Assembly (NCBI GenBank): GCA_026416295.1
Contig: JAOAFL010000032.1
Coordinates: 655-64,654 of the forward strand
DNA from: Burkholderiales bacterium
GTDB lineage: Bacteria > Pseudomonadota > Gammaproteobacteria > Burkholderiales > SG8-39
DNA length: 64,000 nucleotides
Reading direction: 5' to 3'
Numbering within the stretch: position 1 is the stretch's first letter; the number at the start of each line of letters is the position of its first letter. The position numbers and the translations under genes were made by a program. The notes under the pieces were generated by a model that saw only the letters and a program-made list of their open reading frames with translations, was not told where the DNA came from and ran no database searches. Positions 7,556 through 13,912 of the stretch are shown piece after piece.

Positions 7556-8305
7556 TCAGGCGGCGGTCTGCGCGGCGTCCGCCCGCGGGCATTCGAACAC
7601 GTCGGCCTGCATGACGTCGGGCGGCGCAAGTCCCCGCAGCGGCGTCGGGGCGACTTGCAGCCGGCGCATCGCGGCCGCGAGCGCGCCATCGAGCAACGCC
7701 GTCGACTCGCGATACGGCGAGCGCGCGGCGGCGAGGCCGACCTCGTCGCAGAAAGCGCGCGTCCAGCGCCCCAGGTGATCCTCGAGGAACCGCCGCAGCG
7801 CGGCTTCTGCGATCCGACCGCGCTCGGTCCAGCCGTCGCGCACGCCCCAGGCGATCTTGACGAGCAGCAGGCTCGAGAACTCGAGCTGCGTGCACAGATG
7901 GTCCGGGGGCTGCCGATCGGCGTCCGCGATCGCGAACCCGAACGCGGCGTAGAAGCCGCCGATGTCAGCGAGCTCGGCGCTTCGCCCGCCCAGGCGCCGG
8001 CCGTCGCCGTAGGCGGTCTCGCGCATCGGGCAGCGAGCGCCGCCGAGGAAGAGCCGCGCGTATTCGTCGCGCGCGGCCTCGTCGTCGGTGCCCGCCCAGG
8101 CGCGTGCGGCGCGAACGCGCGCGCGCGCAAGCGACGGCGGCTCGTCTTCGGTCGGCGCCAGTTGCGCGAACAGCCGCGCCGTGCGCCGCGCGTGGCCGTC
8201 CTCGGGGTACGCGAACGCTTCGGCGAGCGCCTTCAGGCGCGCCGCCCAGGCGAGACAGGCCCGCGCGCGCTCGCGTCCGGCACGGCTTGCGGTTGCGGCG
8301 GGCAT
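7556..8305 (-). CDS. TorD/NarJ/DmsD-family private chaperone (delta) of the type II molybdoenzyme
   Basis: 249 aa from ATG 8305, 2 nt after the gamma stop. It contains YARLFLGG..CPMRETAYG and DHLCTQLEF, which are typical of TorD-like chaperones. Confidence 0.75.
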   Translation of the reverse strand: MPAATASRAGRERARACLAWAARLKALAEAFAYPEDGHARRTARLFAQLAPTEDEPPSLARARVRAARAWAGTDDEAARDEYARLFLGGARCPMRETAYGDGRRLGGRSAELADIGGFYAAFGFAIADADRQPPDHLCTQLEFSSLLLVKIAWGVRDGWTERGRIAEAALRRFLEDHLGRWTRAFCDEVGLAAARSPYRESTALLDGALAAAMRRLQVAPTPLRGLAPPDVMQADVFECPRADAAQTAA

Positions 8306-8307
8306 CG

Positions 8308-9153
8308 CTATTTCGCCAGCCGCAACGGCAGCCAGCTCGACCACGCCTTGCGGCTCCCGACCTCGCCCGAGCCGCCGTCCCACACCGCGAACGCGGCGAT
8401 CGTGCTCGCCCCGGGCGAAAGCCGCGGCGTGTTCGGCGTCCCGGTCGCAAGCGGCAGCGTGATCACCACCGTCCAGACGCCGTTCGCCCACTCGCCGCGG
8501 CCGTCGGCCTCCTGCTCGGTCTTCACCGTCATCGTCCCCCAGCCCTCGGCCATCTGGTCGAGCACGGGGGAAGCCCGCGGGCGCGAAACCGGGTTGTCGA
8601 GGCCGAGCGCGCCGGTGTAGGGGCGGGCGTCGGTTGCGCGCAGCACCTGGTCGGGATAGACGTCCACCTGCGCGTACGGGTAGAGCTTCCTCACCTCGGG
8701 CTCGCCCTCGGCGAGGTCGCGCTGAAATGCCGCGCGCCACTGAAGGATGTTCACGCGTCCGCCGGGATTGCCCATCATCGGACTCGGCATCGCGTCCTTC
8801 TTCAGTTCGATCGGAAGCTGCACCGCGACCTGATCGCCGAAGCGGTCGGTGAGCATCGTGTCGTCGCGCGTCGGGTCGTTCCATTGCAGCCGGAACGCGA
8901 GCCACTGGCCGTTGTGCACCGCGCGTACGCGCAGCTCCTTCACCGCCGGTTTCGGGTGAAGCGGCGGGACGGCGGTCTGCGCGAGCATCGGCACCGCGAC
9001 CTCTTTTGCGGTCTTCCAGAACGCGGCGCCGGGATCGAGGATCGGCCCCGGCTGCGCGATGCGCGGCGCAGCAAGCTCGCTCTGCGCCGCGACCGCCTGC
9101 GCGGCCGCGAGCGCCGCGGCCGCGACAACGAGTGCGAAAGAACGACCGGCCAT
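8308..9153 (-). CDS. heme-b gamma subunit (EB_dh / DMSO-reductase type II gamma family), Sec signal
   Basis: 281 aa with AAGGAG upstream. The signal peptide is MAGRSFALVVAAAALAAAQAVAAQ. The overall pattern resembles EbdC/SerC/NxrC-like periplasmic heme-b subunits. Confidence 0.8.
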   Translation of the reverse strand: MAGRSFALVVAAAALAAAQAVAAQSELAAPRIAQPGPILDPGAAFWKTAKEVAVPMLAQTAVPPLHPKPAVKELRVRAVHNGQWLAFRLQWNDPTRDDTMLTDRFGDQVAVQLPIELKKDAMPSPMMGNPGGRVNILQWRAAFQRDLAEGEPEVRKLYPYAQVDVYPDQVLRATDARPYTGALGLDNPVSRPRASPVLDQMAEGWGTMTVKTEQEADGRGEWANGVWTVVITLPLATGTPNTPRLSPGASTIAAFAVWDGGSGEVGSRKAWSSWLPLRLAK

Positions 9154-9164
9154 CGTGCGCTCCT

Positions 9165-13300: not shown

Positions 13301-13803
13301 ATCAATTCGGGCGGCGGTGCGCCCGTGGCCGGATCGCGCGGGAATCCGCGGTCCACCCACTCCTTGAAACCCTTGCGCAGAAAAGCGCCGTTTACCCGCC
13401 GGTCGCCGTAGAAGCGGCGCCCGAGCACGAGCCCCTTCTGGCAGCAGCGCGGATCCCAGCGGTGCGAGGCGGTGTTGCCGTAGAGGTCCTTCGCTTTGCC
13501 GTACCCGTAGGTCGGCTCGATGCGCACGACGACGTTGTTCTTCACGAACGCGTTGAGCAGACAGTTGTGCGTGTCGTTCGGGCAGCACATGAAGACGAAC
13601 GTGCGGTCGTGCCGGTAGATGTCCCGGTACATGCGCTCCCAGTCGCGGTTCGGATAATCGGCGAGGGGATTGGCGACCGACACCGGCGCAAGGTGCCGGT
13701 ACTGCGCGAAGAGCTGTCCGGGGCTCGCCACCGCACCGAAGCCGGCGGCGCCGGCCATCTTCAGGAATTCCCGGCGGGAAATCGCACGCGTCGCAAGGGC
13801 CAT
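10315..13803 (-). CDS. Tat-exported molybdopterin (Mo-bisPGD) catalytic alpha subunit, type II DMSO-reductase family, NXR/pNar-like, substrate unknown
   Basis: 1162 aa from ATG 13803, with AAGGAGAG upstream. It has the twin-arginine motif SRREFLK, the FS0-type motif C-x3-D-x3-C (CCPNDTHNC) with a distal CCQKG, and the Asp-containing [16 protein letters not shown] segment of Nar/Nxr/Ebd-type enzymes. Confidence 0.9.
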
Positions 13804-13898
13804 GGACTCTCCTTCCTTTTGCCGGCGGCTGCCTGCGCACCGCACTCCGCGCGCGGGCAGCGCAGGTGACACTGTCGCGCTTCGCGTGCGACATCGGC

Positions 13899-13912
13899 TT
13901 GATATGAATCAA
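13899..13912. promoter_or_regulatory. perfect FNR palindrome TTGATATGAATCAA
   Basis: It matches TTGAT-N4-ATCAA at 10 of 10 positions. The centre is 102.5 nt upstream of the alpha-subunit ATG, in a 384-nt non-coding gap. Confidence 0.8.

What the first reader, a model, noticed from the sequence alone, without database searches (positions are those of the whole stretch)
7556..13912. FNR-boxed operon for a Tat-exported, unusually large type II molybdoenzyme that resembles periplasmic NXR/pNar, not the characterised betaproteobacterial enzymes
Four tightly spaced minus-strand genes encode this enzyme.
- Alpha is 1162 aa, with an RREFLK twin-arginine signal and the TDLPP Asp segment of Nar/Nxr/Ebd enzymes.
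- Beta is a four-cluster Fe-S subunit.
- Gamma is a Sec-exported EB_dh-type heme-b subunit.
- The fourth gene is a TorD-like chaperone.
From memory, the characterised periplasmic type II enzymes (EbdA, SerA, ClrA, PcrA, DdhA, C25 dehydrogenase) have alpha subunits of about 900-980 aa. NarG and Nitrobacter NxrA (about 1200-1250 aa) lack Tat signals. Only the Nitrospira/anammox-type NxrA lineage combines about 1150 aa with Tat export. The gene order alpha-beta-gamma-delta is that of ebd/pcr, not nar/ser. Substrate and physiological direction (nitrite oxidation, nitrate/chlorate/selenate reduction, or hydroxylation) cannot be read from the sequence. The anaerobic (FNR) control and the adjacent c551 argue for a respiratory role.
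Basis: partly seen in the sequence, partly recalled or inferred. Interest (0 to 1): 0.85.

Follow-up and report, generated by a model that had tools for sequence, protein, structure and literature searches.

The report
Periplasmic NXR-like nitrate/nitrite oxidoreductase operon
This four-gene operon encodes an exported molybdenum enzyme related to the nitrite oxidoreductase of anammox and Nitrospira bacteria; it belongs to a very widespread, already noticed but biochemically untested sister group, and here it most likely reduces nitrate when oxygen is scarce.

Summary
Four tightly packed minus-strand genes (alpha 1162 aa, beta 375, gamma 281, delta 249) follow a perfect FNR box.

- **Closest relative.** Alpha matches Kuenenia NxrA (PDB 7B04) end to end: 869 bits, 39% identity, model TM-score 0.90. 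PcrA (200 bits), EbdA and NarG (about 137 bits) are far weaker, so the extra length is a trait of the NXR lineage.
- **Cofactor ligands.** The Tat motif, the FS0 Cys/Asp ligands, the substrate Asn, the Mo-Asp, the four beta clusters and the gamma haem Met/Lys ligands are all present.
- **Placement.** In neighbour-joining trees alpha lies in a strongly supported sister clade, not the canonical anammox/Nitrospira clade. That clade spans Proteobacteria, Rokubacteria, Myxococcota, Chloroflexi and Gaiellales.
- **Rarity.** It is not rare. More than 100 clusters are 73-88% identical, at least 588 species genomes carry a relative, and the gene order is conserved. Metagenomic papers already flag such genes as of unknown direction.
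- **Regulation.** FNR-type boxes sit upstream in 22 of 45 close loci, a 27-fold enrichment.
- **Context.** The window carries FNR, hemN and benzoyl-CoA reductase genes.

Best reading: an anaerobically induced, cytochrome c-linked periplasmic nitrate reductase. Nitrite oxidation is not excluded. This is a new member of a known kind, of moderate interest.

The parts
13899..13912 (.). Perfect FNR/Dnr-type box TTGATATGAATCAA, centred about 102 nt upstream of the alpha ATG
   Evidence: 0 mismatches; the window holds 22 boxes against 3.6 expected. Equivalent boxes lie upstream of alpha in 22 of 45 close loci.
10315..13803 (-). Alpha subunit: Tat-exported Mo-bisPGD catalytic subunit of NxrA type (1162 aa)
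   Evidence: 869 bits and 39% identity to Kuenenia NxrA over the full length; model TM 0.90. The FS0 motif C-C-P-N-D-T-H-N-C, the Y-x4-D Mo ligand and the RREFLK Tat motif are present.
9165..10292 (-). Beta subunit: electron-transfer protein with three [4Fe-4S] and one [3Fe-4S] cluster, of NxrB/NarH type (375 aa)
   Evidence: 383 bits to 7B04_A. The four Cys groups are read directly from the sequence.
8308..9153 (-). Gamma subunit: Sec-exported soluble haem b protein of NxrC/EbdC type (281 aa), with no transmembrane anchor
   Evidence: EB_dh at 2.8e-33; 86 bits to 7B04_C. The residues aligned to the Kuenenia haem ligands Met155 and Lys305 are Met and Lys.
7556..8305 (-). Delta: NarJ/TorD-family maturation chaperone (249 aa; start corrected to 8305)
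   Evidence: It occupies the fourth position in essentially all related loci.
6640..7401 (+). Crp/FNR-family regulator without the N-terminal Cys cluster (FtrB/Dnr-like), next to delta and transcribed convergently with it; a candidate local regulator
   Evidence: A Crp/FNR-family gene lies within 5 kb of the operon in 15 loci. The link to this operon is inferred.
1337..2224 (-). Bona fide FNR with Cys cluster C-A-S-C-N-L-R-E-L-C; likely reader of the FNR boxes
   Evidence: NF008365, 227.7 bits against a cut-off of 228.
14188..14966 (-). Separate FNR-boxed unit: box 14953-14966, DUF2249 gene (14679-14918) and c551-type cytochrome gene (14188-14496); a possible but unproven redox partner
   Evidence: The adjacency is not conserved.

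Best explanation
The operon encodes a soluble periplasmic alpha-beta-gamma nitrate/nitrite oxidoreductase of the NXR structural type, plus its cytoplasmic NarJ/TorD-like chaperone.

**Assembly (inferred from the family).**
- Delta holds apo-alpha until the Mo-bisPGD cofactor and the FS0 cluster are inserted.
- The Tat system exports folded alpha with beta riding along.
- Gamma is exported by Sec and binds one haem b through Met and Lys.

**Electron path (shown by homology to the Kuenenia structure).**
- Mo, then FS0 (3 Cys + Asp), then FS1-FS3 and the 3Fe-4S cluster in beta, then the gamma haem b, then a soluble c-type cytochrome.

**Direction (inferred).**
- In this organism the enzyme is switched on by FNR when oxygen is scarce.
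- It then runs as a nitrate reductase: quinol to cytochrome bc1, to cytochrome c (possibly the neighbouring c551), to the enzyme, to nitrate, giving nitrite in the periplasm.
- Energy would be conserved at bc1, and no nitrate importer is needed.
- The host appears to be a facultatively anaerobic, aromatic-degrading betaproteobacterium.

**Likelihoods.** I put about 0.9 on nitrate/nitrite being the substrates and about 0.55 on reduction being the physiological direction.
For: **Identity.**
- Full-length match of all three subunits to Kuenenia NXR.
- Fold TM 0.90 to 7B04.
- Asn76, equivalent to the proposed substrate-coordinating Asn70 of Kuenenia (Ile in EbdA according to PMC8387239), the Mo-Asp and the FS0 ligands are conserved in 120 of 120 close homologues.
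- The gamma Met/Lys ligands are conserved.

**Link to nitrate/nitrite.** In relatives the operon sits beside napDABC and ccoNOQP (L082), or beside a bona fide narG scoring 1203 bits to E. coli NarG (L060).

**Direction.**
- A perfect FNR box precedes alpha.
- FNR-type boxes occur in 22 of 45 close loci, at 1.59 per kb upstream against 0.059 per kb elsewhere.
- Crp/FNR regulator genes lie near the operon in 15 loci.
- The window also carries a true FNR, hemN, a PAS histidine kinase and the oxygen-sensitive class I benzoyl-CoA reductase bcrCBAD, all four subunits above the equivalog cut-offs.
- Kuenenia NXR reduces nitrate as well as oxidising nitrite (PMC8387239).
- Hydrogenobacter thermophilus has a characterised periplasmic NAR in the clade that holds the Nitrotoga NXR (cited in PMC6050957).
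Against: - No activity, transcript or genetic data exist for any member of this exact clade.
- FNR/FixK boxes also drive microaerobic genes such as cbb3 oxidase. Low-oxygen induction would therefore equally fit nitrite oxidation coupled to a high-affinity oxidase, and L082 has exactly that neighbourhood.
- Relatives that already carry Nap or NarG next to the operon suggest a non-redundant role.
- Some carriers are, from memory, not known nitrate respirers (Thioalkalivibrio thiocyanoxidans, Magnetococcales, Bdellovibrionota).
- Met/Lys haem b is high-potential in Kuenenia (PMC8387239), a property suited to nitrite oxidation.
- No nir, nor, nos or bc1 genes are in the window.
- c551 adjacency is not conserved.
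Confidence: 0.55

Rival explanations
1. The enzyme works physiologically as a nitrite oxidoreductase. It oxidises periplasmic nitrite to nitrate and passes the electrons through haem b to cytochrome c. From there they go to a high-affinity (cbb3 or bd) oxidase under microoxic conditions. The purpose would be nitrite detoxification or supplementary energy gain.
For: - The closest structurally and biochemically characterised relative is a nitrite oxidoreductase.
- The Met/Lys haem b ligation is the high-potential type (PMC8387239).
- Nitrotoga shows that non-canonical periplasmic enzymes of this superfamily can support nitrite oxidation (PMC6050957).
- In L082 the operon directly adjoins ccoNOQP, and Nap is already present for nitrate reduction.
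- In L060 a NarG is adjacent.
- FNR-type boxes classically control microaerobic oxidases too. This rests on established knowledge and was not tested here.
- The window ends in a cytochrome bd oxidase gene.
Against: - The window is dominated by strictly anaerobic functions: bcr, hemN and FNR.
- No CO2-fixation or reverse-electron-transport context was seen.
- cbb3 adjacency occurs in only one lineage.
- Nitrite oxidation yields little energy for a heterotroph.
Confidence: 0.25
2. The enzyme acts on another substrate. It could be a chlorate, perchlorate or selenate reductase, or an anaerobic hydroxylase of the Ebd/C25 type serving the aromatic-degradation genes of the island.
For: - It belongs to the type II DMSO reductase superfamily, whose periplasmic alpha-beta-gamma-delta enzymes include Pcr, Clr, Ser, Ddh and Ebd.
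- The window is an anaerobic aromatic catabolic island.
Against: - PcrA and EbdA score only 200 and 138 bits, against 869 for NxrA.
- The NCBIfam equivalog scores are far below cut-off.
- In the trees the sequence lies inside the NXR superclade with 100% bootstrap support.
- The substrate-side Asn is kept, whereas EbdA has Ile (PMC8387239).
- The operon occurs unchanged in dozens of phyla with unrelated neighbours, so it is not tied to aromatic genes.
Confidence: 0.07

Closest known systems
[quoted passage not shown]
   Same: - All three subunits are homologous over their full length (869, 383 and 86 bits).
- Size (1162 vs 1148 aa), Tat signal, FS0 with 3 Cys + Asp, substrate Asn and Mo-Asp all correspond.
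- The gamma subunit is a soluble haem b protein with Met/Lys ligation.
- The predicted fold has TM 0.90 to 7B04.
   Different: - Identity is only about 39-40%.
- In the trees it falls in the sister clade (Group II, bootstrap 98), not in the canonical clade.
- Gamma is shorter (281 vs 322 aa).
- The operon contains no NXR-T or other cytochrome genes.
- The host is a heterotrophic facultative anaerobe with FNR control, not a nitrifier or an anammox bacterium.
Uncharacterised 'NXR-like / putative NxrA-NarG' genes of Beggiatoaceae, Rokubacteria, Methylomirabilota, Magnetococcales and proteobacterial metagenome-assembled genomes from anammox reactors and aquifers (e.g. Polyangiaceae UTPRO1)
   Same: - This is the window's own clade, at 67-88% identity.
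- The alpha-beta-gamma-delta order and subunit sizes are the same.
- The literature already states that the direction of these enzymes is unknown (PMC9306079, PMC9562985).
   Different: Nothing essential differs. The window adds a clear FNR-regulon and anaerobic aromatic-degradation context.
Candidatus Nitrotoga NXR and the Hydrogenobacter thermophilus periplasmic NAR ('sister clade' of Kitzinger et al. 2018)
   Same: - Periplasmic and Tat-exported, with nxrABCD order and a similar alpha length (1169 aa) (bioRxiv 10.1101/317552; PMC6050957).
- The published identity to Kuenenia NxrA of about 40% (PMC8387239) equals the 39-43% I measured for the window's Group II.
   Different: - No Nitrotoga or Hydrogenobaculum sequence could be retrieved, so co-membership was not tested.
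- Nitrotoga NxrC is 371 aa and NxrB 385 aa, against 281 and 375 aa here.
- The variable residue after the conserved Gln is Met in Nitrotoga (PMC6050957) and Thr here.
Membrane-bound respiratory nitrate reductase NarGHI / Nitrobacter-type NXR
   Same: It shares the Asp-ligated Mo-bisPGD site, the FS0 cluster and a four-cluster beta subunit with a NarH-like 3Fe-4S motif. The substrate pair is presumably the same.
   Different: - NarG scores only about 137 bits, with about 17% structural identity and TM 0.62/0.58.
- NarG has no Tat signal and faces the cytoplasm.
- NarI is replaced here by a soluble EB_dh-type haem b subunit.
- FS0 uses Asp here instead of His.
Ebd/Pcr/Ser/Clr/Ddh periplasmic type II enzymes
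   Same: It is Tat-exported, forms a soluble alpha-beta-gamma complex with an EB_dh-type gamma subunit, has a delta chaperone, and shares the gene order.
   Different: - Alpha is about 200 residues longer.
- It scores 200 bits (PcrA) and 138 bits (EbdA).
- The TIGR03479/03478/03477/03482 scores are far below cut-off.
- These enzymes lie outside the NXR superclade in the trees.

Membership tests
Type II (Asp-ligated) DMSO reductase superfamily (Nar/Nxr/Ebd group) | Asp side chain as Mo ligand in a Y-x4-D segment of the alpha subunit | tested here: met
   [12 protein letters not shown] aligns to Kuenenia Asp275 and is present in 120 of 120 close homologues.
Type II (Asp-ligated) DMSO reductase superfamily (Nar/Nxr/Ebd group) | N-terminal FS0 [4Fe-4S] motif in alpha, a four-cluster beta subunit and a NarJ/TorD-type chaperone | tested here: met
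   C74-x3-D78-x3-C82 plus a later Cys aligned to Kuenenia C67/D71/C75/C115. The four Cys groups of beta are read directly, with Fer4_11 at 1.8e-28. Delta matches PF02613 at 1.4e-16.
NCBIfam 'DMSO reductase family type II' subfamily (Ebd/Ser/Clr/Pcr/Ddh models TIGR03479/03478/03477/03482) | Score at or above the curated cut-off of each model | tested here: not met
   Alpha 325 vs 985, beta 264 vs 481, gamma 131 vs 170, delta 48 vs 152. The EbdABCD equivalogs are also far below cut-off.
Periplasmic NXR superclade (anammox/Nitrospira NXR plus sister groups) | Full-length homology and shared fold with a solved NxrA, including the lineage-specific extra segments | tested here: met
   869 bits over residues 8-1156. 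TM 0.90/0.93 to 7B04, against at most 0.63 (query-normalised) for PcrA, EbdA and NarG. The superclade has bootstrap 100.
Periplasmic NXR superclade (anammox/Nitrospira NXR plus sister groups) | Twin-arginine signal on alpha, none on beta, and a Sec signal on a haem b gamma subunit with Met/Lys ligands | tested here: met
   SRREFLK is read directly, and RRxF[LM] is kept in nearly all full-length homologues. Gamma aligns Met and Lys to Kuenenia Met155 and Lys305. Signal cleavage and export were not tested experimentally.
Canonical NXR clade of known nitrite oxidisers and anammox bacteria | Branching inside the clade that holds Kuenenia, Nitrospira-like, Nitrospinota and NC10 sequences (about 59-85% identity to Kuenenia NxrA) | tested here: not met
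   The window alpha is 39-40% identical to Kuenenia NxrA. It branches in the sister Group II (bootstrap 98), and the canonical clade itself has bootstrap 100. These are neighbour-joining trees, not maximum likelihood.
Canonical NXR clade of known nitrite oxidisers and anammox bacteria | Nitrite-oxidising activity in vivo or in vitro | not testable with these tools
   This needs enzyme assays or 15N tracer work.
Nitrotoga / Hydrogenobacter-type periplasmic NXR/NAR clade | Branching with Ca. Nitrotoga NxrA and Hydrogenobaculum/Hydrogenobacter NarG | not tested
   None of the three homologue searches returned a named Nitrotoga or Aquificales sequence, and the genome scan kept only the best 80 loci. 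There is only an indirect hint: the published Kuenenia-Nitrotoga identity of about 40% (PMC8387239) matches the distance of Group II.
NarGHI respiratory nitrate reductase | Cytoplasmic alpha without a Tat signal, NarI dihaem membrane subunit, NarG equivalog score | tested here: not met
   A Tat motif is present, gamma is of EB_dh type rather than NarI, and TIGR01580 scores 151 vs 1084.

The most novel reading that the evidence does not exclude
The whole sister clade could be a reversible nitrite:cytochrome c oxidoreductase. It spans Proteobacteria, Rokubacteria, Myxococcota, Chloroflexi and Gaiellales, with at least several hundred species. Non-nitrifying heterotrophs, sulfur oxidisers and phototrophs would use it to oxidise nitrite under microoxic or anoxic conditions. 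In that case a large hidden guild of facultative nitrite oxidisers exists, and this FNR-controlled operon is one of its members.
Probability: 0.15. Interest if true: 0.75.

Novelty: new member of a known kind. Interest (0 to 1): 0.33.

Why it matters
Genes of this clade are routinely counted as 'nxrA' or 'narG' in metagenomic nitrogen budgets, without anyone knowing which way the enzyme runs. The clade is large: at least 588 species genomes carry a relative.

Two results from this work bear on that problem.
- FNR-type control is conserved across the proteobacterial members.
- The operon occurs in cultured strains (Thioalkalivibrio thiocyanoxidans ARh2, Thioalkalicoccus limnaeus).

Together they make the direction question testable by experiment. 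For this particular window the result is mainly a correct annotation: an NXR-type periplasmic nitrate/nitrite oxidoreductase in an anaerobic aromatic-degrading betaproteobacterium. It is not a new kind of enzyme.

Tried and rejected
- **Nitrotoga/Hydrogenobaculum anchor.** I spent the two remaining homologue searches on P0121 and on a profile of the nearest outgroup. Neither returned such a sequence. A scan of all held proteins for the Nitrotoga 'Y-x4-D-x11-QM' signature found none. That position varies (T/A/G/N/S) and is not diagnostic.
- **FS0 ligand as a clade marker.** Rejected: Asp and Cys alternate even inside the canonical clade.
- **Conserved redox partner or membrane anchor.** I looked in the flanks of 80 loci. 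Nothing is conserved across the clade. c551 appears in 2 loci, a small cytochrome c in 6, an octahaem cytochrome in 4, cytochrome b in 4, and cco/nap in one lineage.
- **Promoter and terminator scan.** The consensus scan found nothing in 7300-15700, which is expected for an activator-dependent promoter in 70% G+C DNA.
- **Literature.** Ten searches found no biochemical study of this exact clade. The Microflora Danica supplements are not held.
- **Cluster look-up.** Looking up the 50%-identity cluster representatives gave only MAG names.
- **Delta start.** The start first assumed (8296) was wrong and was corrected to 8305.
- **FNR-box background.** A first count was inflated by two truncated loci and was redone.
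Full report
**Observation.** The region holds four co-directional minus-strand genes with gaps of 22, 11 and 2 nt.
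- They are alpha (10315-13803, 1162 aa), beta (9165-10292, 375 aa), gamma (8308-9153, 281 aa) and delta (7556-8305, 249 aa). The delta start is corrected from 8296 to the ATG at 8305.
- Pfam and NCBIfam assign them to the molybdopterin oxidoreductase, Fer4_11, EB_dh and Nitrate_red_del families.
- Alpha begins [15 protein letters not shown] (twin-arginine motif) and carries [12 protein letters not shown]. Gamma has a Sec-type N-terminus.
- A perfect FNR box, TTGATATGAATCAA, lies at 13899-13912, about 102 nt upstream of the alpha ATG.
- The window holds 22 boxes with at most two mismatches against 3.6 expected, and no shuffle out of 100 reached that number.
- A c551-type cytochrome gene and a DUF2249 gene lie upstream as a separate FNR-boxed unit.

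**What the enzyme is.**
- Against all PDB sequences, alpha matches Kuenenia stuttgartiensis NxrA (7B04) over residues 8-1156 at 869 bits. The next hits are PcrA at 200 bits, over the central 600 residues only, and EbdA and NarG at about 137 bits.
- Beta (383 bits) and gamma (86 bits) also hit the NXR B and C chains best.
- I reconstructed residues 3-1143 of Kuenenia NxrA from the printed alignments. BLASTP identity to the window alpha is 39% over the full length.
- The FS0 ligands C67, D71, C75 and C115, the proposed substrate-coordinating Asn70 and the Mo ligand Asp275 of Kuenenia (PMC8387239) all align to identical residues. The motifs are present in 120 of 120 close homologues.
- The gamma residues aligned to the haem b ligands Met155 and Lys305 are Met and Lys.
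- An AlphaFold2 model (pLDDT 83.6, pTM 0.86) superposes on 7B04 with TM 0.90/0.93. The values are 0.62/0.80 for PcrA, 0.57/0.71 for EbdA and 0.62/0.58 for NarG.
- The roughly 200 'extra' residues are therefore structural elements shared with NXR, not trivial insertions.
- The curated type II DMSO reductase models, and the EbdABCD and NarG equivalogs, all score far below their cut-offs.

**How common it is.**
- The first homologue search returned 2714 proteins with E below 1e-10. The best 120 are 73-88% identical and 1105-1176 aa long (median 1162; two are N-terminally truncated). They come from metagenome-assembled genomes of Beta-, Gamma-, Alpha- and Deltaproteobacteria, Magnetococcales and others.
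- A scan of one genome per GTDB species found at least 588 genomes encoding a relative.
- Cultured carriers include Thioalkalivibrio thiocyanoxidans ARh2, Thioalkalicoccus limnaeus and Ca. Magnetaquicoccus inordinatus. Thiomargarita, Rokubacteria, Methylomirabilota, Planctomycetota, Myxococcota and Bdellovibrionota genomes also carry it.
- The alpha-beta-gamma-delta order and the subunit sizes are kept in essentially every locus that extends far enough.

**Placement.** I built neighbour-joining trees with 100 bootstraps on trimmed MAFFT alignments.
- They show a periplasmic NXR superclade on a long, 100%-supported stem.
- It splits into a canonical clade and a sister Group II.
- The canonical clade holds Kuenenia and other anammox sequences, Nitrospira-like sequences, Nitrospinota, NC10 and Poribacteria (bootstrap 100).
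- A loosely attached intermediate set goes with the canonical clade: Symbiobacterium, Caldinitratiruptor, Thermoplasmata and Chloroflexota, at 50-56% identity to Kuenenia.
- Group II has bootstrap 98.
- It contains SAR202, Gaiellales/Chloroflexi, Brocadiia-MAG/Abyssobacteria and Myxococcota/Bdellovibrionota branches. It also contains the Rokubacteria-to-Proteobacteria branch that holds the window.
- The next outgroup (haloarchaea, Obscuribacterales, Thermincola) is only 30-32% identical.
- So the window enzyme is NXR-like but is not a member of the clade of proven nitrite oxidisers.

**Relation to Nitrotoga.** I could not obtain a Nitrotoga or Hydrogenobaculum sequence.
- Its published identity of about 40% to Kuenenia NxrA (PMC8387239) equals the Group II distance.
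- The window may therefore lie in the 'sister clade of mostly uncharacterised proteins' of Kitzinger et al. (PMC6050957). This is inference, not a test.

**What is already known.**
- Kitzinger et al. describe a periplasmic NXR/NAR sister lineage. It contains the Nitrotoga NXR (a nitrite oxidiser) and the Hydrogenobacter periplasmic NAR (a nitrate reducer), and otherwise uncharacterised proteins.
- Studies of anammox reactors and aquifers report exactly such genes in Proteobacteria, Chloroflexi and other metagenome-assembled genomes. [quoted passage not shown] - The finding is therefore a new member of a known, unresolved kind.

**Mechanism.** By homology with the Kuenenia structure, electrons pass between the Mo-bisPGD site, FS0 (3 Cys + Asp), the four beta clusters and the Met/Lys haem b of a soluble gamma subunit.
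- Gamma has no transmembrane helix and there is no NarI, so a soluble periplasmic carrier such as a c-type cytochrome must connect the enzyme to the membrane.
- Kuenenia NXR works in both directions in vitro (PMC8387239).

**Evidence on direction: regulation.**
- FNR-type boxes (at most one mismatch) occur within 350 nt upstream of alpha in 22 of 45 loci of the 70%-or-more clade. That is 1.59 per kb against 0.059 per kb in the rest of those loci. None occur in 34 more distant loci.
- A Crp/FNR-family gene lies within 5 kb in 15 loci.

**Evidence on direction: genomic context.** The window itself carries the following:
- a true FNR with its Cys cluster;
- a second Dnr/FtrB-like regulator next to delta;
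- hemN;
- a PAS histidine kinase;
- an FNR-boxed pad-like molybdoenzyme cluster;
- the oxygen-sensitive class I benzoyl-CoA reductase bcrCBAD.

This points to a facultatively anaerobic aromatic degrader that needs an anaerobic electron acceptor.

**Best reading.** I therefore favour an anaerobically induced periplasmic nitrate reductase fed through bc1 and cytochrome c.

**Counter-evidence.**
- FNR/FixK boxes also drive microaerobic oxidases.
- In the 86%-identical relative L082 the operon sits between ccoNOQP and napDABC. In Thioalkalicoccus it adjoins a bona fide narG.
- These neighbourhoods tie the enzyme to nitrate/nitrite chemistry, but they also suggest a role not redundant with Nap or Nar.
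- Nitrite oxidation, for detoxification or microaerobic energy gain, therefore stays a serious rival.
- A role with other substrates is unlikely on sequence, tree and context grounds.

**Verdict.**
- The rarity and novelty were overestimated.
- Interest is moderate. The value lies in the conserved FNR control and in the cultured carriers, which make the open direction question testable.

Noticed in passing
window 15523-21390 (+): An FNR-like box (TTAATCTGGATCAA, 1 mismatch) precedes a cluster of five genes. They encode an FlK-type thioesterase, an 883-aa cytoplasmic Mo-bisPGD subunit without a Tat signal (best PDB hit ArrA at only 93 bits), and a four-cluster FeS subunit (about 18627-19280). 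A polytopic membrane subunit (about 19300-20089) and a PaaK phenylacetate-CoA ligase follow. From memory this is the layout of the anaerobic phenylacetyl-CoA:acceptor oxidoreductase (PadBCD) genes of Thauera/Aromatoleum.
   Followed up: partly
window 30501-35201 (-): A complete class I (Thauera-type) benzoyl-CoA reductase, bcrCBAD, with all four subunits above the NCBIfam equivalog cut-offs. An enoyl-CoA hydratase-family gene, PhaC, and Pta/AckA genes flank it. The window is an anaerobic aromatic-degradation island.
   Followed up: partly
window 4527-4540, 13899-13912, 14953-14966, 15523-15536 and others: The window is unusually dense in FNR-type boxes: 22 with at most 2 mismatches against 3.6 expected. 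They sit in front of hemN, the NXR-like operon, the DUF2249-c551 unit and the pad-like cluster. A bona fide FNR gene lies at 1337-2224 and a Cys-less Crp/FNR paralogue at 6640-7401.
   Followed up: partly
window 14188-14966 (-): A small DUF2249 gene (79 aa) is co-oriented with, and lies just upstream of, the c551-type cytochrome gene, behind a perfect FNR box. DUF2249-like ORFs also appear near the operon in 3 related loci (e.g. L053 2447-3100).
   Followed up: no
L082 1-23489 (alpha 86% identical); L060 14857-18627: In one close relative the operon is sandwiched between the cbb3 oxidase genes (ccoNOQP-ccoGH) and napDABC. In Thioalkalicoccus limnaeus it lies directly upstream of a canonical narG (1203 bits to E. 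coli NarG). The enzyme therefore coexists with conventional nitrate reductases.
   Followed up: partly
proteins P0433-P0549: The fourth FS0 ligand position alternates between Asp (C-x-P-N-D-T-H-x-C) and Cys (C-x-P-N-C-T-H-x-C). The switch occurs even within the canonical NXR clade (NC10/Nitrospinota-type have Cys, anammox-type have Asp). The Asp ligand described for Kuenenia is therefore not universal among periplasmic NXR-type enzymes.
   Followed up: no
protein P0125 (1104 aa, singleton from ENA): This full-length Group II homologue (38% identical to the window alpha) has a degenerate FS0 motif (FLCADPEGHGC), and no recognisable Y-x4-D Mo-ligand segment was found in it. It may be a catalytically dead paralogue or an assembly artefact.
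   Followed up: no
window 41416-43689 (-): A 757-aa fusion of a pyridine nucleotide-disulfide oxidoreductase domain with an AIR-synthase-related (SelD-like) domain.
   Followed up: no
window 43918-44403 (+): A second FlK-type thioesterase gene sits directly in front of an RND efflux pump.
   Followed up: no
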